Assembly: GCF_003334405.1 (NCBI RefSeq)
Contig: NZ_QOWM01000011.1
Source: Escherichia coli
Lineage (GTDB): Bacteria; Pseudomonadota; Gammaproteobacteria; Enterobacterales; Enterobacteriaceae
DNA length: 64,000 bases
Direction: 5' to 3' (one strand)
Below the pieces are notes generated by a model. It was not told the DNA's origin, searched no databases, and worked only from the letters and a program-made list of their open reading frames with translations. This document shows, piece after piece, positions 5,358 through 44,656 of the stretch. How positions within the stretch are numbered: the stretch's first letter is position 1; each line of letters opens with the position of its first letter. The translations under genes and the position numbers were made by a program.

Positions 5358-6762
<1,405 letters not shown>

Positions 6763-6765
6763 GGC

Positions 6766-8298
6766 TTATTCCTTCACCTGATGCACAACATCGATCACCG
6801 AGCCATCGCGGTAACGCACAACGGCAACGACGCGGTCTGTGAATTCAATCGGCTGTGGTTCACCGGTCAGCAGACGCGCACGTTCGCGCAGCCACTCAAT
6901 GGAAACCACTTTAATGCCCGCTTCCTGCAGACGTTCTGCCAGTTCCGGACGTGCCGGGTTAACTGCGATACCGTGGTCTGTGACCAGAATATCGACACTG
7001 GAGCCTGGGGTGATGCAGGTCAGTACGTTATCCACCAGAGTCGGAATACGACCGCGTACCAGCGGCGCGACGATGATGGAAAGCGCAGAGGCAATCGCGG
7101 TATCGCAGTGACCACCGGAAGCACCACGCAGTACGCCGTCAGAGCCGGTCAGCACGTTAACGTTGAACTGGGTGTCAATTTCCAGCGCGCTCAGTACCAC
7201 CACGTCGAGACGATCAACCGATGCGCCTTTCGAACCCCAGTTAGCGTACTGGTTGGCGCTGATTTCGATGTGATTGGGGTTACGGGCCAGCGATTGCGCA
7301 GCATGGCTGTCAAAGCTCTGCACATCCAGCAGTTTGCGGATCAGACCTTTTTCGTGCAGGTCAACCATCGTCGCGGTAATACCGCCAAGGGCGAAGTCGG
7401 CGCGAATATCGCGGCTACGCATTTTGTCTTCCAGGAAACGGGTTACCGCCAGCGATGCGCCGCCGGTGCCGGTTTGCATGGAGAAACCTTCTTTGAAGTA
7501 GCCAGAGTTGACAATCACATCCGCAGCGCTACGGGCAATAAGCAGTTCGCGCGGGTTAGTGGTCATACGGGTCGCGCCAGCGCCGATTTTTGCAGCATCG
7601 CCAACGCGGTCAACTTTGACGATCAAATCAACCTGATCTTGCTCAATGCTTGCCGGATTATGCGGATAAGGCAGCAGTTCTTCGGTAAGCATCACGACCT
7701 GTTTTGCGTTGTCGGCATCAACCATTGCATAGCCGAGGGAGCCGCAGCAGGCTTTACCGGTGTAGCCGTTGGCATTACCGAATTCATCACAGGACGGGAC
7801 GCCGAGGAAAGCCACGTCGATATTCAGTTCGCCGCTCTGTACCAGATGCACACGACCGCCGTGAGAGTGGATCTGCACCGGTTCTGCCAGCAGACCACGG
7901 GAGATCTCTTCCGCCAGTGGACCACGCAGGCCGGAGGTATAAATGCGGGTAACCACGCCCTGGCGAATGTGTTCTACCAGCGGCGCATGGCAATCACTCA
8001 GGGAGCTGGACGCCAGGGTCAGGTTTTTAAAGCCCATCTTCGCGATGACGTCCATCACCATATTGACGGTCAGGTCACCGCCACGGAAAGCGTGATGGAA
8101 GGAAACCGTCATGCCGTCCTGTAAACCAGAGCGACGAATCGCTTCTTCCAGGTTGGCGCACAGTTTGCGATCGCGCGCTTTTTCAGCCTGGTAGGTTTGC
8201 TTTGGCGAGTTCTGGAAAGCGGCAAGATCGCATTCAGCGCGACGATTCCAGGCCGCTACCCGTTCTTGTCGTTGAGATTGTTCAATTTTCTGCGTCAT
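6766..8298 (-). CDS. citF: Citrate lyase alpha subunit (citrate CoA-transferase)
   Basis: ORF 6766..8340; the internal start MTQKIEQSQ... gives the remembered 510-aa product. Confidence 0.9.
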   Translation of the reverse strand: MTQKIEQSQRQERVAAWNRRAECDLAAFQNSPKQTYQAEKARDRKLCANLEEAIRRSGLQDGMTVSFHHAFRGGDLTVNMVMDVIAKMGFKNLTLASSSLSDCHAPLVEHIRQGVVTRIYTSGLRGPLAEEISRGLLAEPVQIHSHGGRVHLVQSGELNIDVAFLGVPSCDEFGNANGYTGKACCGSLGYAMVDADNAKQVVMLTEELLPYPHNPASIEQDQVDLIVKVDRVGDAAKIGAGATRMTTNPRELLIARSAADVIVNSGYFKEGFSMQTGTGGASLAVTRFLEDKMRSRDIRADFALGGITATMVDLHEKGLIRKLLDVQSFDSHAAQSLARNPNHIEISANQYANWGSKGASVDRLDVVVLSALEIDTQFNVNVLTGSDGVLRGASGGHCDTAIASALSIIVAPLVRGRIPTLVDNVLTCITPGSSVDILVTDHGIAVNPARPELAERLQEAGIKVVSIEWLRERARLLTGEPQPIEFTDRVVAVVRYRDGSVIDVVHQVKE

Positions 8299-30927: not shown

Positions 30928-33510
30928 TTAGCCAACGACCAGATTGAGGAGTTTACCTGGTACGTAAATCACTTTACGTACAGTAACGCCATCAAGATAT
31001 TTTGCTACCAGATGTTCCTGGCCAGCACGTTCGCGAACCTGTTCTTCCGTTGCGTCCACCGGAACGGTGATTTTGGCACGGACTTTACCGTTAACCTGCA
31101 CCACGACCAGCGTGGAGTCTTCCACCATCGCTTTTTCGTCAGCAACCGGCCACGGCGCGTTGTCGATATCGCCTTCGCCTTTCAGTTCCTGCCACAGCGT
31201 GAAGCAGATGTGCGGGGTGAACGGGTTAAGCATACGGACAACGGCCAGCAGTGCTTCCTGCATCAGAGCGCGATCCTGCTCGCCATCGGTTGGTGCTTTC
31301 GCCAGTTTGTTCATCAGCTCCATAATCGCCGCAATTGCGGTGTTGAAGGTCTGACGACGGCCGATATCATCGGTCACTTTAGCGATCGTTTTATGCACAT
31401 CGCGACGCAGCGCTTTCTGATTTTCAGTCAGCGCATCAACGTTCAGTGCCGCAACATCACCTTTTGCTGTGTGCTCGTAAACCAGTTTCCAGACACGTTT
31501 CAGGAAGCGGTTAGCCCCTTCCACACCGGATTCCTGCCATTCGAGAGTCATATCAGCCGGAGAAGCAAACATCATAAACAGACGAACGGTGTCCGCGCCG
31601 TAACGTTCAACCATCACCTGCGGGTCGATACCGTTGTTCTTCGACTTGGACATTTTGCTCATGCCGGTATAAACCAGTTCATGGCCTGCCGCATCTTTCG
31701 CTTTCACGATACGGCCTTTCTCGTCACGTTCAACGATAGCATCAACCGGGGAAACCCAGTTACGTTCGCCGTTTTCGCCAACATAGTAGAAGGCATCTGC
31801 CAGCACCATACCCTGACACAGCAACTGTTTCGCTGGTTCGTCAGAGTTCACCATGCCTGCATCACGCATCAGTTTGTGGAAGAAGCGGAAGTAGAGCAGG
31901 TGCATAATGGCGTGTTCAATACCACCAATGTAGATATCCACCGGCAGCCAGTAGTTAGCCGCTTCGGAATCCAGCATACCTTCTTTGTACTGCGGGCAAG
32001 TGTAGCGCGCATAGTACCAGGAGGACTCCATAAAGGTGTCGAAAGTGTCGGTTTCACGCAGTGCTGGCATACCGTTAACGGTAGTTTTCGCCCACTCCGG
32101 ATCTGCTTTAATCGGGCTGGTAATGCCGTCCATTACCACATCTTCCGGCAGGATCACCGGCAGCTGGTCGTCCGGGGTCGGCATTACGGTACCGTCTTCC
32201 AGCGTCACCATCGGAATCGGCGCGCCCCAGTAACGCTGACGGGAAACACCCCAGTCGCGCAGGCGGTAGTTCACTTTACGCTCGCCAACGCCCATCGCAG
32301 TCAGTTTATCGGCGATGGCGTTGAAGGCCGCTTCATGGTCAAGACCGTTGAACTCGCCAGAGTTGAACAGCACGCCTTTTTCAGTCAGGGCTTGCTGAGA
32401 AAGATCTGGCTCAGAGCCGTCAGCTGCCAGGATAACCGGTTTGATGTTCAGGCCGTATTTAGAGGCAAACTCGTAGTCGCGCTGGTCGTGCCCCGGTACC
32501 GCCATAACTGCGCCCGTGCCGTACTCCATCAATACGAAGTTTGCTGCCCAAACGGGAATTTCTTCGCCCGTTAATGGGTGAACCGCTTTAAAGCCAGTAT
32601 CGACGCCTTTTTTCTCCATCGTCGCCATTTCAGCTTCGGCAACTTTGGTGTTACGGCATTCGTCAATAAAGGCCGCCAGTTCAGGATTATTTTCCGCCGC
32701 TTTCTGCGCCAGCGGATGACCCGCAGCTACCGCCAGGTAGGTACAACCCATAAAGGTGTCCGGGCGGGTAGTGTAAACGGTCAGCGTGTTGTCATAGTCG
32801 TTAACGTTGAAGGTGATCTCCACGCCTTCGGAACGACCGATCCAGTTACGCTGCATGGTTTTAACGGTGTCTGGCCAGTGATCCAGTTTATCCAGATCGT
32901 TGAGCAGCTCGTCAGCGTAAGCAGTGATTTTGATAAACCACTGCGGGATCTCTTTACGTTCAACTTTAGTATCGCAGCGCCAGCAGCAGCCGTCGATAAC
33001 TTGTTCGTTCGCCAGTACGGTCTGGTCGTTCGGGCACCAGTTGACCGCAGAAGTCTTCTTATATACCAGGCCTTTTTTATACAGCTCGGTGAAGAATTTC
33101 TGTTCCCAACGGTAGTATTCCGGCGTACAGGTTGCCAGCTCGCGGCTCCAGTCATAACCAAAGCCCAGCATTTTGAGCTGGTTTTTCATATACGCGATGT
33201 TGTCGTACGTCCACGGTGCCGGAGCGGTGTTGTTTTTCACCGCCGCGCCTTCCGCAGGCAGACCAAACGCGTCCCAGCCGATCGGCTGCAGGACGTTTTT
33301 GCCCAGCATACGCTGGTAGCGGGCGATCACGTCACCGATGGTGTAGTTACGTACGTGGCCCATGTGTAGTCGACCAGAAGGATAGGGAAGCATAGACAGG
33401 CAGTAATACTTCTCTTTGCTCTCGTCTTCGGTTACTTCAAATGTGCGCTTCTCATCCCAATGAAGCTGTACTTTGGATTCTATCTCTTCCGGGCGGTATT
33501 GCTCTTGCAT
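30928..33510 (-). CDS. leuS: Leucyl-tRNA synthetase
   Basis: ORF 30928..33651; start at [11 protein letters not shown]... (860 aa); class I HMGH and KMSKS motifs. Confidence 0.95.
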
Positions 33511-33744
33511 GGCAGCCAGTGGTCCTGTTTTCAATACGGCTACAAATGTAGCGTTGAGGTGGTTTTTCAGATCCGCATAGCATAGCCCAAACGTCCGCGT
33601 CAAAACAGCCTTTCGCGCACTCGACGTTGAAATGATGCCCGGATTATTCATACATTAATTTACAGAGTTTGTGGGCGTATTAGCAAAGCAAGGAACAAAG
33701 AACGTCTATTATTATAGTCAGTTAACGACCCGGGAGATGAAACG

Positions 33745-34227
33745 ATGAACAAGGTTGCTCAATATTACCGTGAACTGGTTGCGTCACTGAGCGAACGCCT
33801 GCGCAATGGCGAACGTGATATCGACGCACTGGTGGAACAGGCGCGCGAGCGCGTAATAAAAACAGGGGAGTTAACGCGAACCGAGGTCGATGAGCTGACG
33901 CGAGCTGTCAGACGTGACCTGGAAGAGTTCGCCATGAGCTATGAAGAGAGCCTGAAAGAAGAATCTGACAGCGTCTTTATGCGGGTGATTAAAGAAAGCT
34001 TGTGGCAGGAGCTGGCAGACATCACCGATAAAACGCAGCTTGAATGGCGCGAAGTTTTCCAGGACCTCAATCATCATGGGGTTTATCACAGCGGAGAAGT
34101 GGTCGGGCTGGGAAATCTGGTCTGCGAGAAATGTCACTTCCATCTCCCGATCTACACACCGGAAGTGCTGACGCTATGCCCGAAATGTGGTCATGACCAG
34201 TTCCAGAGACGCCCGTTTGAGCCGTAA
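33745..34227 (+). CDS. ybeL: DUF1451-family protein with a C-terminal zinc-ribbon (CxxC...CxxC)
   Basis: 160-aa ORF with CEKCHFH...CPKCGH. Confidence 0.85.
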   Translation: MNKVAQYYRELVASLSERLRNGERDIDALVEQARERVIKTGELTRTEVDELTRAVRRDLEEFAMSYEESLKEESDSVFMRVIKESLWQELADITDKTQLEWREVFQDLNHHGVYHSGEVVGLGNLVCEKCHFHLPIYTPEVLTLCPKCGHDQFQRRPFEP

Positions 34228-34260
34228 TAGTCTGATTTCGCACAGCAATAAAGAGAATAT

Positions 34261-34293
34261 GGGCCGAATGAAATTCCCCGGCCCTTGTTTTTA
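34261..34293 (+). terminator. Putative intrinsic terminator after ybeL (between convergent ybeL and ybeQ)
   Basis: Stem gggccg/cggccc followed by ttgttttta. Confidence 0.5.
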
Positions 34294-34296
34294 TCT

Positions 34297-35280
34297 CTAC
34301 AGTAAATCTTCAGTCTCACGAATTTCCTGACTGACATCTCTGGTTCCGGATGACTGAACTTTACGATACAGGTCGAGAGCCTGTCGGAGATCGACAGGTC
34401 TTCCTTCTCCGTAGTGATACATAATGGCCAGGTTATACCAGGCAGTGGCGTCATTGCATTCAGCGGCTTTCGTAAACCATTCAAAGGCAGCCTGATAATC
34501 TTTCTCAACGCCTTGTCCGTGTTTATACATATAACCGATGTTGACGTAAGCGCCGACGCTCCCCTGAGCGGCAGCCTTCAGATACCAGTACATCGCTTGC
34601 TTATAGTCCTGGTCCACCCCTTCGCCAGCGTTATAATCCCATGCAATTTGAAACTGGGCGTGCCGATTACCCTGCTGTGCGCTTTTCAAATACCAGAATG
34701 CGGCGAGTGTCTTGTTTTGAGCAACGCCTTTTCCGTCTTCATAAAGATCGGCCAGATTGTTTTGCGCGTCACTATGGCCTTGTAATGCAGCTTGTTTGTA
34801 CCAGAAAAATGCCAGCGCATAGTCTTTTGCGACTCCGTTGCCATTTCTGTACATCCACCCAAGATTATTTTGCGCATAAGACATTCCGCTCTCCGCGGCT
34901 ATCTGATACCAGACAACCGCTTCTTTATAATTGGGGGCTTCTCCACGATCCAGTGTCCAGCCAAGGGCGTTGGAAGCGAAAGTATGGCCTTGTAGGGCAG
35001 CTTTTTTCAGCCAGAAGATGGCTTGCTCATTATCTTTATGACGGCTTTTATCCTCGGTATACTTTTGCCCTAAGGAATACTGTGCTTCACAATGACCTTG
35101 CTCAGCGGCCAGCTTCAGCCAGTAAAAGGCTTTTTCGTCGTCCGGAGAATCAATTGCGCTATCGCGATTATAATAAAACCCAACAATATATTGAGCCTCG
35201 CAATCGCCTTTTTCAGCACGTTCGATAATCTCATCTATTGATAAATTATCGCAGCAACTTGACGTGAAAATCATTATCAT
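34297..35280 (-). CDS. ybeQ: Sel1-like repeat (TPR-like) protein, no signal peptide
   Basis: 327-aa ORF with about eight repeats of the pattern A..W(Y)..AA.QG...AQ..LG..Y..G.GV..D. Confidence 0.85.
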   Translation of the reverse strand: MIMIFTSSCCDNLSIDEIIERAEKGDCEAQYIVGFYYNRDSAIDSPDDEKAFYWLKLAAEQGHCEAQYSLGQKYTEDKSRHKDNEQAIFWLKKAALQGHTFASNALGWTLDRGEAPNYKEAVVWYQIAAESGMSYAQNNLGWMYRNGNGVAKDYALAFFWYKQAALQGHSDAQNNLADLYEDGKGVAQNKTLAAFWYLKSAQQGNRHAQFQIAWDYNAGEGVDQDYKQAMYWYLKAAAQGSVGAYVNIGYMYKHGQGVEKDYQAAFEWFTKAAECNDATAWYNLAIMYHYGEGRPVDLRQALDLYRKVQSSGTRDVSQEIRETEDLL

Positions 35281-35437
35281 TTCCTTATGGTTGCAGATAA
35301 AACATATTATATTTTTATGTGTTCCATTTTTGCGTAAGCCTTATTTTATGCGTATTATGTCGCGTCAGAAAAGTATAAATAAACGAGCCTCGCAATGCGG
35401 CTAATATTCATTTAATGAATATTTAAGGATAAATTAT

Positions 35438-36145
35438 ATGGACATGGAGTCGCAAAAAATATTGTTTGCACTTTCCACTCCGATGGAAATACGCAATGAA
35501 TGCTGTTTACCTTCGCATTCATCACCCAAAATGTATTTAGGTACATGCTTTTTTGACCTTTCTTCCTCATGGGGAATTGATGACCGTGATGACCTGCTGC
35601 GCACAATTCACCGAATGATCGATAACGGTCATGCCGCTCGGTTGGCAGGGTTTTATCACCGCTGGTTTCGTTATTCGCCATGTGAATGGCGTGACTATCT
35701 TGCTGAACTAAATGAGCAAGGTCAGGCTTATGCGCAATTTGTCGCCAGCACCGCCGAATGCTGTGGCGAAGGGGGAATCAAAGCCTGGGATTATGTCCGG
35801 ATGGGTTTTTTAAGCCGAATGGGCGTACTTAATAACTGGTTGAGCGAAGAAGAAAGTCTATGGATCCAGTCGCGCATTCATCTACGGGCTCTACGTTATT
35901 ATAGTAACTGGCGGCAATACTTTGCCGGTTATACCTTTGGTCGGCAATATTGGCAGTCTCCCGAAGATGATCATCTGCCTTTATTACGCGAATTCTTAGC
36001 GCGTAAAGAATACGACGATTCCGGCAATGATATGTTTTATCAATTATTTGCCAGTGATGATGCGTATTACCCTACCTTGTCCTGGCAACCATTGGCTTAC
36101 TATTCTGCATGCCCGGAAACGCTTAAGGATATGAGCGACCTATGA
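35438..36145 (+). CDS. ybeR: DUF1266-family protein (paralog of ybeU)
   Basis: 235-aa ORF about 60% identical to the ybeU product by eye; stop overlaps the djlB start (ATGA). Confidence 0.85.
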
Positions 36146-37569
36146 AAAATTGCTGGAAGATCCTCGATATAGAGGAAACGACTGACGTCGATATTATCCG
36201 CCGCGCTTATCTGGCGCTGTTACCGTCCTTTCATCCAGAAACCGATCCGCAGGGTTTTAAACAACTTCGTCAGGCGTATGAGGAGGCGCTACGGATTGCG
36301 CAGTCGCCTGCTAAATCTGTTTGGCAACCAGAAGAATATGAGGTAGCAGAACATGAAATTCTGCTCGCCTTTCGTGCGTTACTTGCCTCTGATAGTGAAC
36401 GTTTTCTGCCCTCCGCCTGGCAGCGATTCATTCAGCAATTAAATTATTGCTCGATGGAGGAGATTGATGAATTACGCTGGTCGCTGTGCACAATCGCCAT
36501 GAACACTGCCCATTTATCCTTCGAGTGCGTGGTGTTATTAGCAGAAAGATTGCGGTGGTTACAGGAGGAAAATACCGGGGAAATAGACGAAGAAGAACTG
36601 GAATCCTTTTTATATGCCATTGCGAAGGGGAATGTTTTTAACTTCCAGACCATTCTGCATCTGCCCGTTGCCGTGCAAAATGACACCATCGATTTTTACC
36701 AAATGTTCGCTCGGATTTGGTCATCGCATCCACAATGGCTGACATTGTATTTAGCGCAACATCGCGCAGTGATTATCCCCGATGATGCAAAACTGCACAG
36801 AAATTTACTCCGCTGGTATAGCGCAGGTCGCCTGGATATCCCCGAACTTCTGGATTACGCCCAGTCATGGCGGGAAACTGAACCTGATAATGAAGATGCG
36901 CCTTATTATGAATACGCGCAACGCGTCTATTGTGGAGAAGGCGAAAGCCTGTTGGCAGAACTTTGTGACTACTGGCGCGAGTATCCCTCCACCCAGGCGG
37001 ATGCTTTAATGTTGCAATGGTGCCGTCAGCATCGGGTCGATTATTACCCATTACTGGTGATGATGATTGAAGCGCGTGATCTGGTTAACGATCAGGGAAA
37101 ACCGCTACTTTATGTCCCCGGCGACAGCGCCCGTACGCGTTTTCATTTATACGAAATACTCAGCGATGAAAAACTCTCTGCGCTGGGGCGTTCACTGGTC
37201 GAGATGGTTTTGCACAAAGGACGTAAGCCGCGGATCTCACTCACGCGTGATACAGAACATACCTTATGGCCATTATATCTAGTTGCCAAACAATTAGTGC
37301 AGGCCTGCCAACCTACAGAAGAATCATTAATGCCGATTGTGAGCCGCCTTGATGCAGAAAATCGTTGTCCACTGGAAGCATTAATTATTCGTCGATTATT
37401 AATTCAGGCGGCGAATTTTACCGAGAAGCAAACTGTTGAACCGGAGCCGCAACCGCAGCCAATGCCCGTTGACGATGGTGGGCCAGGCTGTCTGGGCATC
37501 ATTAAAATTATTTTCTATATTTTTATCTTTGCTGGTTTGATAGGGAAAATACTCCATCTGTTCGGGTGA
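36142..37569 (+). CDS. djlB: J-domain-like protein with a C-terminal transmembrane tail anchor (putative HscC co-chaperone)
   Basis: 475-aa ORF; N-terminal J-like helix pattern with HPE in place of HPD; C-terminal hydrophobic segment [20 protein letters not shown]. Confidence 0.85.
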
Positions 37570-37578
37570 CAGTCGACG

Positions 37579-38133
37579 TTAATGTGCGGGAAGCCCGGCA
37601 AGTAATCTTTCCGCATTTTTGTAATGTTGTTTGGCGGCCAGTTTTAACCATTTTTGAGATTCATAATGGTTAACATTAATACCTGAGCCATTTCTGTAGA
37701 TCAAACCTAAAGTATATTGAGCATGAGCATACCCTTGTTCAGCTGCTTCCTTATACCAGAGAATTGCTTTACGGGTGTCGGGTTTGACCCCCAGACCTTT
37801 GAGGTAGATCCACCCCAGTTTACTTTGCGCGCGTGGATTTTCCTGTTCCGCTGATTGCTCATACCAGTATCTCGCCTGTGTATAATCCAGTGGTTTACCG
37901 TCGCTACCATGAAGATAAAATTCTCCAAGGCGATATTGCGACGTTGAGTGACCATGAATCGCGGAAAGCTCCGTGGCTGCCGTGGTGAATGGAAGACTGC
38001 CCGGTGAGCTTAAATAATCAAAGGCATAATTCACCATGGCTTTATCACGCAACGTCGTTTTCTTGGGTTGGCTAATACAGGTAATTGCTGCAACTATAAA
38101 AATTGCGAATATATACATTAATTTTTTATTCAT
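37579..38133 (-). CDS. ybeT: Sel1-like repeat protein with an N-terminal signal peptide or anchor
   Basis: 184-aa ORF; N-terminal [19 protein letters not shown] followed by three Sel1-type repeats. Confidence 0.85.
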
Positions 38134-38234
38134 GTGTGAATGCTTCGATTTTCTTTTTATTTTGAAAGCGTCAAGTTTATACTCATCAATAATAAAAAAG
38201 TAGTCAGTTAATGCACTTAAGGGATTATTAACAA

Positions 38235-38942
38235 ATGAATAAGGAAGAACAATATCTTCTTTTTGCGCTTTCTGCGCCCATGGAAATACTTAATCAGGGT
38301 TGCAAACCCGCGCATGACTCGCCAAAAATGTATACTGGGATAAAAGAATTCGAGCTCTCATCATCCTGGGGAATAAATAATCGTGATGATTTAATTCAGA
38401 CTATTTATCAGATGACTGATGATGGTCATGCCAATGATTTAGCTGGCTTATATCTGACATGGCATCGCTCTTCCCCTGAAGAGTGGAAAGCATTAATTGC
38501 TGGTGGCTCGGAGAGAGGGTTGATTTATACCCAATTCGTTGCCCAAACCGCTATGTGCTGTGGGGAAGGGGGAATCAAAGCCTGGGATTATGTTCGAATG
38601 GGGTTTCTGTCACGGGTCGGTGTGCTCAACAAGTGGCTGACGGAAGAAGAGAGTTTATGGCTGCAATCGCGCGTCTATGTACGAGCTCACCATTACTATC
38701 ACAGCTGGATGCACTATTTTTCCGCCTATTCGTTAGGACGTCTCTACTGGCAATCTTCTCAGTGCGAAGACAACACTTCGCTACGCGAGGCGCTAACCCT
38801 GTACAAATACGATAGCGCCGGGAGTCGTATGTTCGAAGAGCTGGCAGCGGGAAGCGATCGTTTCTATGCCACGCTTCCCTGGCAGCCATTAACTGTCCAG
38901 TCTGAATGCCCGGTAACGCTTAAGGATGTGAGCGACCTATGA
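38235..38942 (+). CDS. ybeU: DUF1266-family protein (paralog of ybeR)
   Basis: 235-aa ORF; stop overlaps the djlC start (ATGA). Confidence 0.85.
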
Positions 38943-40390
38943 AAACATGTTGGCAAATCCTCGAAATTGAAAGCACGACGCAAATAGACATTATCCGCCA
39001 GGCTTATCTTGCTCGCTTACCGTTGTGTCATCCCGAAACCGATCCGCAAGGGTTTAAAGCATTACGCCAGGCCTATGAAGAGGCCCTGCGACTGGCGGTA
39101 AATCCTGTCGAGGAAGCAGATGATGAAGAAAAAGATGCTGCCGCTGAACATGAAATACTACGTGCATTCAGGACATTACTGGATTCAGAAAGTGATCGTT
39201 TTCAGCCTTCCGCCTGGCAGAAATTTATTCAGCAATTAAATACCTGGAACATGGAGGATGTCGATCAATTACGCTGGCCGCTGTGTGCAATCGCCATAGA
39301 AGCGCGATATCTTTCATTAAATTGTGCTTCTTTGCTGGCAGAGCGTTTGAACTGGCATTCATTTAATGACAGCGAAGGAATGGATGAGGAAGAAAGGGAG
39401 GCTTTTCTTGAGGCCATTCAGGCTGGTGATTGTTTCGATTTCCTTAGCCTTCTGGAATATCCCATTGCGTTGCAGAACCAGACTGTTGAGTATTACTTCG
39501 CGCTGGAACGTTGCTGCCGTTACCATCCTGACTATGTCACTGCGTTTTTGGCGATGGAAGGTCCGTGGTTAATTCCTGATGATGCAAAGTTACATCGCAA
39601 ACTGTTGCGCTGGTACAGCTCGGTGCAAACAGGTATGGCGGAACTCATTCCTGTCGCTCAACAGTGGCAAACGGAAGAACCAGAAAGCGAAGATGCCCGG
39701 TATTACTTGTGTGCACAACGTTTGTACTGCGGCGAGGGGGAAAGCCTGCTTGCCGATCTCTGCGCGTACTGGGAAAGTTACCCATCTACACAAGCTGATA
39801 ATTTGTTGTTGCAGTGGAGCAAGCGTCATTGCCCGGATTATTTCGCGTTATTAGTGATGGTTATCGAAGCGCGGAGCATGGTAGATGCGCAAGGTCAACC
39901 GCTGAAATATGTTCCTGGTGAGAGCGCCCGGACGCGGCTGTTATGGGCGGAGATTTTACATAGCGGAAAATTATCGCCGTTAGGTCAATCGTTTATTGAG
40001 TCGTTATTCTTCAAGCGCAAAGCATGGGCGTGGTGGAAATCGAGAGTCGGTAGCGAGACAGAGCAAGATTCACCGTTCCTGGATTTGTATCGGGTAGCGG
40101 AACAGGTAGTACTTGAAGCGTTTCCGAAACAAGAGATGCTGGCCCGTCTTAATACAAGGCTGGAAGGCGGAGATGCTCATCCATTAGAGGCCATTGTCAC
40201 CCGGATGCTTTTGACGAAAGTGAAACTCGAGCCGGAGGATGAAGATGTCGATGAGCCAACACCTGAAAATCATGAAGAAAAAAATGATGAGGGTGAAAAA
40301 CCACAGAGCATTACCAGCATTATCAAAATCAGTTTAACGGTGCTGGTGATAGGTTATGCTCTCGGCAAAATCGCGATGTTGTTTAGCTGA
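38939..40390 (+). CDS. djlC: J-domain-like protein with a C-terminal transmembrane tail anchor (putative HscC co-chaperone)
   Basis: 483-aa ORF paralogous to djlB; HPE motif; C-terminal hydrophobic segment [21 protein letters not shown]. Confidence 0.85.
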
Positions 40391-40410
40391 CGATGTGTTT
40401 TTTGCGCCGA

Positions 40411-40442
40411 TGCCGGATGCAGCGTTTACGCCGCATCCGGCA
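40411..40442. repeat. REP-like palindrome between convergent djlC and hscC
   Basis: tgccggatgcagcgtttacgccgcatccggca resembles the REP consensus (GCCGGATGCGGCG...). Confidence 0.45.
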
Positions 40443-40449
40443 GCCGTGT

Positions 40450-42120
40450 TTATGGGATCTCAATGGCTAAATAATCGCTCGCCCGCCGCCGAACTTCATC
40501 CACGCGGGCCATATCGTTTGACTGCAACGCCGCATCAAAATCGGTGATCACCCGGCCGATCTCTTCTCGCTCGTCACCCAGCGCCCGCGCCCACAACTCT
40601 TCCAGTTTGGCTTTAAAGGTGCGATTGATGAGCATATCGCGCGGATAAATTTTCAATGCGGATAACCGCGTCCGACTCTCTTCAATCTGCTGCGCGCTCA
40701 ATGTTACCGGGCTGTGGTTAATCACTCTGGACTTAACGCTGCCGTCTTCCAGAAGCACGTCAACTTCAAGCAACCCGTTGATATCATAACTAAAGCGAAT
40801 ATCAATCGACTGATAAGCCCCGGTTTTCTTCAACGGCACATCGAAGGATTCCACCAGAATGTTGTTTTTAACTTTGTGGTTTTCTCCCTGATAGACGTTA
40901 ACCGTAATTGAATCCTGTTCCGGGTGCATGGTTGAATAAGTTTCTACACGCGACACGGGCACAGTGGTGTTTCGTTCAATAATCGGCGAGAAAATGCCGG
41001 AAACGCCCTGGCGGTTAACTTCAACGCCCAACGAGTAAGGGCAAATATCAGTGAGGATTACCTCTTCAATATCTTCACTGCGTAAGCGGCAGGCGGCCTG
41101 GATTGCTGCGCCCAGCGCGACAATGGTGCTCGGATCGTAACTTTGATACGGTAATTTGCCAAACAGACGCACGGCGATTCGCTGCACCAGCGGCATTTGT
41201 GACGCGCCGCCAACCAGCACCAGACTGTCGATTTGACTCGGCTTCAGACGCGCATCGCGCAACGCCTGTTCAATCGGCACTCGCAAGCGATTGAGCAGCG
41301 GCAACCACAAATCTTCCAGTTCGTTCTCGTAAAATTCGCATTCCCGCGTTTCTTCCTGATACTGCCAGCGAATGTGCAATGGCGATTGATTGCTACATTT
41401 TGCCGCTTCCACACAGGCGTACAAGGCTGCCAGTTCACTCTCGTTAAGCGTGGTCCTGGCGACATCCGCGCGTTTTAAAACCTCATCGACCAGCATATGG
41501 GTAAAATCTTCGCCACCAAGAAAGTTGTCGCCAGCGGAGGCGTGAACTTCAATCACCGGCGTGGCGTACTCAAGCACCGTAACGTCAAACGTGCCGCCAC
41601 CGAGATCAAACACCAGCGAACGGGTATTTTGTTGGGTATGCAGGCCATACGCCATCGCAGCTGCTGTGGGTTCATTAATTAAGCGTACCGCATTTAACCC
41701 GGCTAACTCCGCTGCTAAACGGGTATGCTTGCGTTGTTCATCGCTGAAATAAGCCGGAACGGAGATCACCACATCTTTAATCGGACGTTGCAGAAATTCT
41801 TCGGCATCTTCTTTTAATGAGCGTAATACCAAAGAGGACAGTTCTGGCGCGTTAAATGTGTCGCTGCCTAACCGCCAGTTGGTATTACTGCCCATTGCAC
41901 GTTTAAATAACGCTGCCGTTTTATCCGGATGCGAAGTACGCCGTGATACAGCCGGTTTTCCGACTAAAATATGATTATTTTCATCCATGCTAATTATGGA
42001 TGGTGTTAAATATTCACCGAACTTATTTGGAATTAATTGCGCGGCACCGTCTTTCCAGACGGCAATTAAACTATTGGTAGTACCGAGATCGATACCAATG
42101 GCGAGTTCTGCATTATCCAT
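40450..42120 (-). CDS. hscC: Hsp70-family chaperone HscC (Hsc62)
   Basis: 556-aa ORF with Hsp70 signatures IDLGTTNS and DLGGGTFD; shorter than DnaK. Confidence 0.9.
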   Translation of the reverse strand: MDNAELAIGIDLGTTNSLIAVWKDGAAQLIPNKFGEYLTPSIISMDENNHILVGKPAVSRRTSHPDKTAALFKRAMGSNTNWRLGSDTFNAPELSSLVLRSLKEDAEEFLQRPIKDVVISVPAYFSDEQRKHTRLAAELAGLNAVRLINEPTAAAMAYGLHTQQNTRSLVFDLGGGTFDVTVLEYATPVIEVHASAGDNFLGGEDFTHMLVDEVLKRADVARTTLNESELAALYACVEAAKCSNQSPLHIRWQYQEETRECEFYENELEDLWLPLLNRLRVPIEQALRDARLKPSQIDSLVLVGGASQMPLVQRIAVRLFGKLPYQSYDPSTIVALGAAIQAACRLRSEDIEEVILTDICPYSLGVEVNRQGVSGIFSPIIERNTTVPVSRVETYSTMHPEQDSITVNVYQGENHKVKNNILVESFDVPLKKTGAYQSIDIRFSYDINGLLEVDVLLEDGSVKSRVINHSPVTLSAQQIEESRTRLSALKIYPRDMLINRTFKAKLEELWARALGDEREEIGRVITDFDAALQSNDMARVDEVRRRASDYLAIEIP

Positions 42121-42203
42121 TGCATTTATATCTTGAAAGAAAAAGAGATAAACAGATTAAGACCACCCAGGTAACGCGTGGTGATCTTAATCAATGACGT
42201 GTG

Positions 42204-43139
42204 TTAAGCGTAAAATTTCAGACGATCAGCCAGTAAATCAACAAAGCCCTGACGATCAACATCGACCATTACGGTGGCATTCGGTTTATTGCCTGTCAGA
42301 TAATAATAATCAACAACCGTCATACCCTGGGTATATTTCCCCTGTGTTTCCACGCCAACCCAGCGCTCAACAGAGGTAAATAACTCCGGTTTCAACAGCC
42401 AGGCGATGGTGCATGGGTCATGCAGTGGTGCGCCGACAAAGCCCCATTTTTCGTCTTTATGATATTCGAGGAAGAAATCCAGCAGTTCGGCAACAATGGT
42501 TGAAACAGGGTTACCAATCGCGCGGAAACGCTCGGTGTCTTCAACGTGGATTTGTGCTTTATGAGTAACATCCAGACCGGCCATCACCACCGGGATCCCT
42601 GACTGGAAGACAATTTCTGCCGCTTCCGGGTCAACGTAAATATTAAATTCAGCCGCAGGCGTCCAGTTACCCAGCCCCATAGCGCCACCCATAATCACGA
42701 TACGGGCAATTTTGCTATGCAGTTCCGGATGGCTATTGAGCAGCAAGGCAACGTTAGTTTGCGGTCCGGTAGACACAATGGTGACAGGTTCCGCACTTTC
42801 ACGCAGCGTTTTCGCCATCAGCTCTACCGCCGTACAGTTTTGCGGTGCGAATGTCGGTTCCGGTAATGCCGGGCCGTCGAGACCGCTTTCGCCGTGCACA
42901 TTGTCCGCGATAATCAACTCACGCATTAACGGTTTTACCGCGCCGCCTGCTACCGGAATATCGGTGCGATTAAGCAAGGTCAGCATACGCAGAACATTGC
43001 GTAAGGTTTTTTCTGGTGTCTGGTTTCCGGCGGAAGACGTAATTGCTTTGACATCAAGCTCTGGTGAGGCGAGGGCGAGAACTATTGCGATAGCGTCGTC
43101 ATGACCTGGGTCGCAATCTAACAGAATTGGCAGTGCCAT
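42204..43139 (-). CDS. rihA: Pyrimidine-specific ribonucleoside hydrolase
   Basis: ORF 42204..43172; start at [16 protein letters not shown] (311 aa) with the nucleoside-hydrolase DxDxxxDD motif. Confidence 0.9.
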
Positions 43140-43256
43140 TGTTGCTCCTTGTTGTGTGCTTCTTTGCGACAAGGGTAACGCCAGGATGTAACAGATACGA
43201 GGGGCGAAACGATAAAGCGTGAGATGGCGCGCAATTGGGTATGCGCGCCAGAGTGA

Positions 43257-43982
43257 TTAATGCAGGATTTTCGCGAGGAAGTCTTTTGCGCGGTCCGATT
43301 TCGGATCATCGAAGAAAGCGTCTTTCGGCGAGTCTTCGACAATTTTACCCTCGTCCATAAAGATCACCCGATTCGCCACTTTACGGGCAAAGCCCATTTC
43401 GTGGGTCACCACCATCATGGTCATTCCTTCGTTCGCCAGTTCCACCATCACGTCCAGTACTTCGTTGATCATCTCCGGATCCAGCGCCGATGTCGGTTCG
43501 TCAAACAGCATCGCAATAGGATCCATACACAACGCGCGAGCGATTGCCACACGCTGCTGCTGACCGCCGGAAAGCTGCGCCGGAAACTTATTGGCGTGAG
43601 CAGAAAGCCCGACACGCTCCAGCAGTTTCAGGGCTTTTTCACGAGCCGGCGCTTTATCGCGTTTAAGCACTTTCACCTGCGCCAGGGTCAGGTTTTCGAT
43701 AATCGACAGATGAGGGAACAGCTCGAAATGCTGGAATACCATCCCGACGCGGGAACGCAGCTTTGCCAGATCGGTTTTCTTGTCGTTAACCACGATACCA
43801 TCGACGGTGATTTCACCTTGCTGCACCGGTTCGAGGCCGTTGACGGTTTTAATCAGCGTTGATTTGCCGGAACCAGACGGGCCGCAAACCACCACCACTT
43901 CGCCTTTTTTCACTTCGGTTGAGCAGTCGGTCAGCACCTGAAAGTGACCATACCATTTTGAAACATTTTTCAGGGTAATCAT
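43257..43982 (-). CDS. gltL: Glutamate/aspartate ABC transporter ATP-binding protein
   Basis: 241-aa ORF with Walker [10 protein letters not shown] and ABC signature LSGGQQQR. Confidence 0.95.
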
Positions 43983-44656
43983 TATGCTGTCCTTCTTTTC
44001 AAGTAGCTGACCAACAACGACGCGCTAAGACTAATAACGAAATAAACAAATCCGGCAAACAGGATCATCTCAACCTGCGTACCATCACGCTCACCAATGG
44101 TTGAGGCGGTACGGAAGAAATCGGCCAGGGATAACACATACACCAGTGAGGTATCCTGGAACAGTACGATGCCCTGAGTGAGCAGCAGCGGCACCATCGC
44201 GCGGAACGCCTGCGGCAGAATAATCAGTTTCATCGACTGCCAGTGAGTCATTCCCAACGCCAGCGCGGCGCTCGATTGACCACGAGAAATACTTTGAATA
44301 CCAGCACGGATAATCTCTGAATAGTAGGCCGCTTCAAACATCGAAAACGCCACCATCGCCGAAATTAAACGGATATCATTTTTTGGCGATAATCCCAGCA
44401 CGTTTTGCAGAAAACCCGGCACGATCAGGTAAAACCACAGCAAAACCATAACTAAAGGAATCGAGCGGAATACGTTAACGTAGGCTTTGGCAAACCACGC
44501 CACGGGCGCAAAGCTGGATAAACGCATCACCGCCAGCATCGTGCCCCACAAAATACCAATCACTACCGCCGTGACGGTGATTTTCAGGGTGATCACCAGC
44601 CCGTCGAGCAGATATGGCAGGGAAGGGACAATGGAACTCCAGTCAAACTCGTACAT
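43982..44656 (-). CDS. gltK: Glutamate/aspartate ABC transporter permease
   Basis: 224-aa membrane ORF; 1-nt overlap with gltL. Confidence 0.9.

What the first reader, a model, noticed from the sequence alone, without database searches (positions are those of the whole stretch)
37483..37566. DjlB and DjlC are C-terminally tail-anchored
Each protein ends in a roughly 20-residue hydrophobic helix followed by only a few residues (DjlB ...[27 protein letters not shown]; DjlC ...[24 protein letters not shown] at about 40307..40387). This predicts a cytoplasmic J-like domain tethered to the inner membrane, which would localise HscC activity to the membrane, a topology unlike the N-terminally anchored DjlA.
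Basis: seen in the sequence. Interest (0 to 1): 0.4.

Follow-up and report, generated by a model that had tools for sequence, protein, structure and literature searches.

The report
DjlB/DjlC tail anchors: real, already known
The two E. coli HscC co-chaperones DjlB and DjlC do end in a single membrane-spanning helix, but this has already been published (shown by experiment for DjlC, stated for DjlB), so the finding is correct and ordinary.

Summary
The window is the E. coli leuS–ybeL–ybeQ–ybeR–djlB–ybeT–ybeU–djlC–hscC–rihA region. DjlB (36142..37569, 475 aa) and DjlC (38939..40390, 483 aa) each have one strongly hydrophobic stretch, and it lies at the extreme C-terminus. An acidic or proline-rich linker precedes it, and AlphaFold2 models that linker as disordered in DjlB. 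The tail is conserved in 86 of 91 full-length homologues from Escherichia, Salmonella, Citrobacter and Enterobacter. It has high hydrophobicity and a low hydrophobic moment, so it looks transmembrane rather than amphipathic.

Peschke et al. 2018 established DjlC as a bona fide tail-anchored inner-membrane protein. [quoted passage not shown]

Small additions from this work:
- The tails share a conserved pattern of basic residue, 13 uncharged residues, basic residue.
- Every Djl gene examined except one Salmonella paralogue is translationally coupled to an upstream DUF1266 gene.
- Distant HPE-type relatives often carry other C-terminal membrane anchors, such as DUF805.

Verdict: already known, low interest.

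The parts
36142..37569 (+). djlB (ybeS) coding sequence, 475 aa
   Evidence: ORF; RefSeq annotation 'djlB: J domain-containing protein'; 50% identical to DjlC over the full length
36142..36306 (+). DjlB N-terminal J domain (residues ~1-55) with an HPE triad at residues 31-33
   Evidence: Pfam DnaJ at residues 4-47, E=0.0017; family profile hits only J-domain structures in the PDB, best E=3.6e-4; AlphaFold2 helices 4-8, 16-29 and 36-54; H31, P32 and E33 invariant in the 34-sequence alignment
36349..37434 (+). DjlB all-alpha middle domain (residues ~70-431; Pfam PF27158 DjlB_C_2nd)
   Evidence: AlphaFold2 model, pLDDT mostly 86-96; precomputed PF27158 hits on homologues; no significant structural match in the PDB
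37435..37488 (+). DjlB flexible linker (residues 432-449: [22 protein letters not shown] region)
   Evidence: pLDDT below 50 for residues 432-452; the 30 residues before the tail (residues 419-448) have net charge -4
37489..37566 (+). DjlB C-terminal transmembrane tail anchor (residues 450-475: [26 protein letters not shown])
   Evidence: KD19 maximum 2.39; Eisenberg mean hydrophobicity 0.7-0.9 with moment 0.16-0.34; AlphaFold2 helix 450-474; conserved in homologues; called tail-anchored in PMC8215388
38939..40390 (+). djlC (ybeV) coding sequence, 483 aa
   Evidence: ORF; RefSeq annotation 'co-chaperone DjlC'
38939..39103 (+). DjlC N-terminal J domain (residues ~1-55) with an HPE triad
   Evidence: Pfam DnaJ at residues 4-47, E=0.036; aligned with DjlB; literature: DjlC stimulates the HscC ATPase (PMC8215388)
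40217..40306 (+). DjlC acidic linker (residues 427-456, net charge -9)
40307..40387 (+). DjlC C-terminal transmembrane tail anchor (residues 457-483: [27 protein letters not shown])
   Evidence: KD19 maximum 1.99; low hydrophobic moment; experimentally established tail anchor according to PMC6794478 and PMC8215388, both citing Peschke et al. 2018
35438..36145 (+). ybeR, DUF1266 protein (235 aa); its stop overlaps the djlB start by 4 bp (ATGA)
   Evidence: 59% identical to YbeU
38235..38942 (+). ybeU, DUF1266 protein (235 aa); its stop overlaps the djlC start by 4 bp (ATGA)
   Evidence: the same DUF1266-Djl overlap occurs in Citrobacter, Enterobacter and distant relatives
40450..42120 (-). hscC, the Hsp70 partner (556 aa, no hydrophobic segment), convergent with djlC
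   Evidence: maximum KD19 of 1.19

Best explanation
DjlB and DjlC are paralogous class C J-domain co-chaperones of the specialised Hsp70 HscC. Each is built in four parts: an N-terminal HPE-type J domain, an all-alpha middle domain, a flexible acidic or proline-rich linker, and one C-terminal transmembrane helix that runs to the last residue. This is a classical tail-anchored architecture.

The anchor leaves the ribosome only at termination, so insertion is post-translational. For DjlC, published work shows that SRP/FtsY, DnaK and YidC help insertion and that insertion is largely independent of SecYEG. The J domain and middle domain stay in the cytoplasm, tethered to the inner membrane. There they recruit soluble HscC and stimulate its ATPase, which confines HscC action to the membrane surface.

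Shown here: the sequence architecture, its conservation, the transmembrane-like physico-chemistry of the tail, and the absence of any other targeting signal.
Shown in the literature: membrane insertion of DjlC, stimulation of the HscC ATPase by DjlC, and cadmium sensitivity of hscC and djlB djlC mutants.
Inferred: membrane insertion of DjlB, N-in/C-out topology for both, and the identity of the clients.
For: - Unique terminal hydrophobic segment in each protein. Positional chance is 14 and 34 in 20000 shuffles.
- High mean hydrophobicity with low helical moment, which is not amphipathic.
- AlphaFold2 (run on DjlB only) gives a 25-residue terminal helix, 450-474, separated from the folded body by a linker with pLDDT below 50.
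- The tail is present in 86 of 91 full-length homologues even though tail sequences diverge between subfamilies.
- The J domain is supported by the profile search against the PDB and by Pfam.
- HscC has no hydrophobic segment.
- Literature: DjlC is a bona fide tail-anchored protein whose transmembrane domain is necessary and sufficient for insertion, with SRP, FtsY, DnaK and YidC involved (PMC6794478; PMC8082313). Both DjlB and DjlC are called tail-anchored, implying HscC function at the plasma membrane (PMC8215388). HPE is tolerated in DjlB and DjlC (PMC13254874).
Against: - No experiment on DjlB localisation was found. DjlA, DjlB and DjlC are below proteomic detection in exponential phase (PMC8215388).
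- The uncharged core between the two conserved basic residues is only 13 residues. A full span therefore has to bury or snorkel at least one Lys or Arg, and a positive charge near the C-terminus must approach the periplasmic side against the membrane potential.
- A simple sum on the Hessa scale (values recalled from memory) is marginal for DjlC, +1.4 kcal/mol over 19 residues.
- I could not read Peschke et al. 2018 itself, so the N-in/C-out evidence for DjlC is second-hand.
- No dedicated topology predictor was available.
Confidence: 0.88

Rival explanations
1. The tail is a peripheral, in-plane or monotopic membrane-binding helix that dips into the cytoplasmic leaflet without spanning the bilayer. 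MinD and FtsA have C-terminal membrane-targeting helices of this kind. The two basic residues would stay on the cytoplasmic side.
For: The uncharged core is only 13 residues, flanked by conserved basic residues in 41 of 51 distinct tails. DjlC has moderate hydrophobicity and a marginal Hessa-scale sum. Residues i and i+14 lie about 40 degrees apart on a helix, so both charges could face the same way.
Against: The hydrophobic moment is low (0.16-0.34) while mean hydrophobicity is high (0.5-0.9), which is the signature of a transmembrane rather than a surface-seeking helix. The literature reports insertion of the DjlC transmembrane domain, its dependence on YidC and cross-linking to YidC (PMC6794478).
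Confidence: 0.07
2. The hydrophobic C-terminus is not a membrane element. It would instead be a soluble-protein feature: an oligomerisation or packing helix, an intramolecular client-mimic for HscC, or a degradation signal.
For: pLDDT of the terminal helix is only 57-66. No direct data on DjlB localisation were found.
Against: The helix is separated from the fold by a disordered linker. It contains no acidic residue in about 30 positions across the family. Its hydrophobicity is conserved while its sequence is not. The DjlC transmembrane domain alone targets mNeonGreen to the membrane (PMC6794478). HscC binds positively charged peptides and is not enriched for leucine (PMC8215388).
Confidence: 0.04
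3. The hydrophobic ending is a chance or compositional feature, or an annotation artefact such as a wrong stop codon or frame.
For: A whole-protein shuffle gives a window of this hydrophobicity somewhere in the protein in 2.5-6% of trials.
Against: At the C-terminus specifically the frequency is 0.07-0.17%. The feature is present in both paralogues and in 86 of 91 homologues. The ORF boundaries are identical to RefSeq.
Confidence: 0.01

Closest known systems
E. coli DjlC (YbeV) as characterised by Peschke et al. 2018 (J Mol Biol 430:389) and Kluck et al. 2002 (J Biol Chem 277:41060)
   Same: It is the same protein. The window's ORF is annotated 'co-chaperone DjlC' in genomes that match the 6.8-kb query at 100% identity.
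   Different: Nothing differs. The finding restates a published result.
E. coli DjlB (YbeS), paralogue of DjlC
   Same: 50% identical to DjlC over the full length with the same four-part architecture. Called tail-anchored in PMC8215388.
   Different: Membrane insertion and HscC stimulation were not found to have been shown directly for DjlB. Its tail is more hydrophobic than DjlC's (KD 2.39 against 1.99).
Flk and SciP (TssL), the other studied E. coli tail-anchored proteins
   Same: A single C-terminal transmembrane domain and post-translational insertion involving SRP and YidC (PMC6794478; PMC8082313).
   Different: The cytoplasmic domains are unrelated. The Flk transmembrane domain is more hydrophobic and depends more on SRP than that of DjlC.
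DjlA, the membrane-anchored J-domain co-chaperone of DnaK
   Same: It is also a J-domain protein tethered to the inner membrane with its J domain in the cytoplasm (established knowledge; listed as a class C J-domain protein in PMC8215388).
   Different: The order is reversed: DjlA has an N-terminal transmembrane segment and a C-terminal HPD J domain, and it works with DnaK. DjlB and DjlC have an N-terminal HPE J domain and a C-terminal transmembrane segment, and they work with HscC. J-domain identity to DjlA is only 23%.
Eukaryotic tail-anchored proteins (GET/TRC40, EMC and SND clients)
   Same: The topological principle is the same: a single transmembrane domain within about 30 residues of the C-terminus, a cytosolic N-terminal domain and post-translational insertion.
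   Different: The insertion machinery differs. Bacteria use SRP/FtsY, DnaK and YidC.

Membership tests
Tail-anchored membrane protein | Exactly one hydrophobic transmembrane-length segment in the protein | tested here: met
   The only KD19 windows above 1.6 are at the C-terminus. The best window elsewhere scores 1.53 (DjlB) and 1.36 (DjlC), and in DjlB it lies inside the confidently folded middle domain; DjlC was not modelled.
Tail-anchored membrane protein | The transmembrane segment lies at the extreme C-terminus, with at most ~30 residues after it, so that it emerges only at termination | tested here: met
   The hydrophobic run reaches the last residue. AlphaFold2 helix 450-474 of 475 in DjlB.
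Tail-anchored membrane protein | No N-terminal signal peptide or signal anchor | tested here: met
   The N-termini [15 protein letters not shown] and [15 protein letters not shown] are polar and form helix I of the J domain.
Tail-anchored membrane protein | The helix has transmembrane rather than amphipathic character | tested here: met
   Eisenberg mean hydrophobicity 0.5-0.9 with moment 0.16-0.34. Caveat: the uncharged core is only 13 residues, between two basic residues.
Tail-anchored membrane protein | Experimentally membrane-integrated with N-in/C-out topology | not testable with these tools
   Literature only. DjlC is reported as inserted, with its transmembrane domain necessary and sufficient (PMC6794478; PMC8215388). 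No such data were found for DjlB.
J-domain protein, class C | J-domain fold (helices I-III or IV) recognisable by profile | tested here: met
   The family profile hits 16 or more J-domain PDB chains, best E=3.6e-4. Pfam DnaJ E=0.0017 and 0.036. AlphaFold2 helices at 4-8, 16-29 and 36-54.
J-domain protein, class C | HPD tripeptide between helices II and III | tested here: not met
   The triad is HPE in both proteins and is invariant in the family. The literature regards HPE as the one tolerated substitution, citing DjlB and DjlC (PMC13254874; PMC10410713).
J-domain protein, class C | No G/F region, zinc finger or DnaJ C-terminal domains | tested here: met
   Pfam found nothing other than the DnaJ domain.
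J-domain protein, class C | Stimulates the ATPase of a partner Hsp70 | not testable with these tools
   Reported for DjlC with HscC (Kluck 2002, via PMC8215388). Assumed for DjlB.
DjlA-type membrane J-domain protein | N-terminal transmembrane segment with a C-terminal J domain | tested here: not met
   The J domain is at residues 1-55 and the only hydrophobic segment is C-terminal.
Pfam PF27158 (DjlB_C_2nd) | Match to the family HMM | tested here: inconclusive
   Precomputed PF27158 hits are listed for near-identical cluster representatives (P0001 at 96% identity, P0045) and for syntenic homologues. The Pfam-A copy behind profile_search does not include this family.

The most novel reading that the evidence does not exclude
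The tail may be more than a generic anchor. Three observations point that way: (1) the conserved pattern of a basic residue, 13 uncharged residues, a basic residue and then a short aromatic/His end; (2) the marginal hydrophobicity of the DjlC tail; and (3) the near-universal translational coupling of each djl gene to an upstream DUF1266 gene. Together they could mean that insertion is regulated or partner-dependent, and that DUF1266-Djl-HscC is a dedicated three-part membrane-proximal chaperone module whose client or adaptor is the uncharacterised DUF1266 protein.
Probability: 0.15. Interest if true: 0.4.

Novelty: already known. Interest (0 to 1): 0.08.

Why it matters
Tail anchoring of the J-domain partners is what places the poorly understood Hsp70 HscC at the inner membrane. 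It therefore shapes hypotheses about HscC clients, such as cytosolic domains of membrane proteins, Cd2+ export and efflux pumps. That reasoning is already in the literature (PMC8215388), so the finding adds no new knowledge.

What remains open:
- experimental proof for DjlB;
- the identity of the clients;
- the role of the co-encoded DUF1266 proteins.

Tried and rejected
- NCBIfam gave no family for DjlB, DjlC, YbeR or YbeU.
- PADLOC gave no defence-system match for any of the seven genes beyond negligible Sel1-repeat noise, so a phage-defence reading is rejected.
- A Foldseek search of the DjlB model against the PDB gave no significant match (best E=0.15, TPR-like solenoids). The middle-domain fold therefore stays unassigned.
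- Rfam found nothing in 33000-44000.
- The promoter and terminator scan gave fewer sites than shuffled sequence and was uninformative.
- Peschke et al. 2018 is not held in the library. The search for YbeV/YbeS returned mostly irrelevant papers.
- The whole-protein hydrophobicity shuffle was too weak a test on its own. I replaced it with a position-specific test.
- No dedicated topology predictor (TMHMM, DeepTMHMM, Phobius) was available. I used Kyte-Doolittle and Eisenberg scales, and Hessa scale values recalled from memory, so the Hessa sums are only indicative.

Full report
**Locus identity.** The 6.8-kb stretch 35400-42200 is 100% identical to many complete E. coli chromosomes. RefSeq annotates it as ybeR (DUF1266), djlB, ybeT, ybeU (DUF1266), djlC and hscC, flanked by leuS, ybeL and ybeQ on one side and rihA and gltL on the other. 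The ORFs I list have the same boundaries: djlB at 36142..37569 (475 aa) and djlC at 38939..40390 (483 aa), both on the + strand.

**The observation.**
They translate to the last 28 residues of DjlB ([28 protein letters not shown]) and the last 27 of DjlC ([27 protein letters not shown]).
- In each protein, the only 19-residue Kyte-Doolittle windows above 1.6 are these terminal ones. The maxima are 2.39 and 1.99, against 1.53 and 1.36 for the next best window.
- A window that hydrophobic somewhere in a shuffled protein is not rare, at 2.5-6% of trials. Within the last 30 residues it occurs in only 14 and 34 of 20000 shuffles.
- Conservation is the stronger argument. The two paralogues are 50% identical end to end and align through the tail. 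86 of 91 homologues of at least 420 aa, from Escherichia, Salmonella, Citrobacter and Enterobacter, carry a terminal hydrophobic window. Three of the five exceptions shown are truncated or altered at the C-terminus and one (P0071) falls just below threshold.
- Tail sequences differ between subfamilies while hydrophobicity is retained. Examples are [47 protein letters not shown] and LWQVIKIIFFIGVIGHLLSRFMH.

**Anatomy.**
- N-terminal J domain. Residues 4-47 give a weak Pfam DnaJ match (E=0.0017 for DjlB, 0.036 for DjlC). A profile of 34 family members hits only J-domain chains in the PDB, including DnaJ, DNAJA1 and CbpA, with best E=3.6e-4.
- HPE triad. The signature tripeptide is HPE, not HPD, and it is invariant in the family. 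This is a known peculiarity of DjlB and DjlC (PMC13254874; PMC10410713).
- AlphaFold2 model of DjlB (mean pLDDT 83, pTM 0.66). It shows the J-domain helices, an all-alpha body up to residue 431, a segment with pLDDT below 50 at 432-452, and one continuous helix at 450-474.
- Linkers. The DjlB linker is acidic and proline-rich, with net charge -4 over the 30 residues before the tail. The corresponding DjlC stretch has net charge -9.
- Tail character. Mean Eisenberg hydrophobicity is 0.7-0.9 in DjlB and 0.5-0.65 in DjlC, with a helical moment of only 0.16-0.34. This is a transmembrane profile, not an amphipathic one.
- HscC has no hydrophobic segment (maximum KD 1.19), so any membrane localisation of HscC must be indirect.

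**A nuance in the tail.**
- The last ~30 residues contain no Asp or Glu in most family members (median 30 residues after the last acidic residue).
- 41 of 51 distinct tails contain two basic residues separated by exactly 13 uncharged residues, followed by 4-7 mostly aromatic or His residues. About 2 of 51 would show this after shuffling each tail, although the tails are phylogenetically related.
- A full membrane span therefore has to include at least one snorkelling Lys or Arg.
- This fits the published description of the DjlC transmembrane domain as comparatively less hydrophobic (PMC6794478).
- It also keeps a small probability on a non-spanning, in-plane anchor.

**Literature.**
[quoted passage not shown] SRP, FtsY, YidC and DnaK are needed for optimal insertion, YidC cross-links to the transmembrane domain, and SecYEG has only minor effects.
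[quoted passage not shown] It also reports that DjlC, but not DnaJ, CbpA or HscB, stimulates the HscC ATPase, and that hscC and djlB djlC mutants are Cd2+-sensitive.
Only the DjlB half rests on prediction.
- I could not obtain Peschke et al. 2018 itself.

**Mechanism.**
- They insert post-translationally through SRP/FtsY, DnaK and YidC. Their J and middle domains stay in the cytoplasm on a flexible tether and recruit and activate HscC at the inner membrane.
- Shown here: the architecture, its conservation and the physico-chemistry of the tail.
- Shown by others: DjlC insertion and ATPase stimulation.
- Inferred: DjlB insertion, topology and clients.
- Rivals: a peripheral or in-plane helix (0.07), a soluble hydrophobic helix (0.04) and chance (0.01).

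**Context seen along the way.**
- DUF1266 coupling in the window. Each djl gene overlaps the stop of an upstream DUF1266 gene by 4 bp (ATGA). YbeR and YbeU are 59% identical.
- The pairing elsewhere. It is kept in Citrobacter, with two pairs and no ybeT (L002), and in Enterobacter, with a single pair plus hscC at another chromosomal site (L003 and L004). It is also kept in distant relatives of 805-908 aa, one of which (L006, the 908-aa relative) has no hscC nearby; the contigs for the 805-aa relative (L007, L008) are too short to tell (L006 and L007).
- Literature on DUF1266 is essentially nil.
- The wider family. A profile search of 1.84 billion representatives gives 6665 relatives at E up to 1e-3. 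Of 65 long hits, 37 carry C-terminal hydrophobic segments and 28 have none. The ~900-aa group ends in a DUF805-like membrane domain (borderline Pfam E=9.3e-4).
- C-terminal membrane anchoring is thus recurrent but not universal in this HPE J-domain family.

**Verdict.** Interest is low (0.08).

Noticed in passing
window 35438-36145 / 36142-37569 and 38235-38942 / 38939-40390; L002, L003, L004, L006, L007: Each djl gene examined, apart from one Salmonella paralogue, is preceded by a 235-aa DUF1266 gene (ybeR, ybeU) whose stop overlaps the djl start by 4 bp (ATGA). The pairing persists in Citrobacter, in Enterobacter (at a different chromosomal site) and in 805-908 aa distant relatives, one of which (L006) has no hscC nearby. 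DUF1266 has essentially no literature (one incidental paper). It may be a dedicated partner or client of the HPE J-domain proteins.
   Followed up: partly
window 37489-37566 and 40307-40387; homologues P0001-P0112: The tail anchors share a conserved pattern: basic residue, exactly 13 uncharged residues, basic residue, then 4-7 aromatic or His residues. It occurs in 41 of 51 distinct tails, against about 2 after shuffling. Most tails have no Asp or Glu in the last ~30 residues. The uncharged core alone is too short to span a bilayer.
   Followed up: partly
proteins P0130-P0265; L006: There is a large family of HPE-type J-domain proteins (6665 hits at E up to 1e-3). Among them are ~890-910 aa forms that end in a DUF805-like two- or three-segment membrane domain (N[RK][YF]GPP motif; Pfam DUF805 E=9.3e-4 for P0130) and long soluble forms with no hydrophobic segment.
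   Followed up: partly
L005 (Salmonella contig) 6001-7377: This Salmonella contig carries a third Djl paralogue of 458 aa, also ending in a hydrophobic tail, directly after ybeL and with no DUF1266 gene upstream. It sits alongside two DUF1266-Djl pairs.
   Followed up: no
window 37579-38133 (-) ybeT and 34297-35280 (-) ybeQ: Two Sel1/TPR-repeat genes lie on the opposite strand within the island. YbeT has an N-terminal hydrophobic stretch ([21 protein letters not shown] 2.0), which suggests a signal peptide or membrane anchor. YbeQ has none. ybeT is absent between the two Djl pairs in Citrobacter (L002).
   Followed up: no
window 40411-40442: A 15-nt inverted repeat (TGCCGGATGCAGCGT / ACGCCGCATCCGGCA, 93% complementary, 2-nt loop) lies between the convergent stops of djlC and hscC. 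It looks like a REP element and may act as a bidirectional terminator or mRNA stabiliser.
   Followed up: partly
window 34297-40390: The ybeQ-djlC block has 43-48% G+C, against 50-53% for leuS, ybeL, hscC, rihA and gltL. Only 3664 of 5426 complete E. coli genomes hold at least 80% of the 6.8-kb region. This suggests a variable, possibly horizontally acquired island.
   Followed up: no
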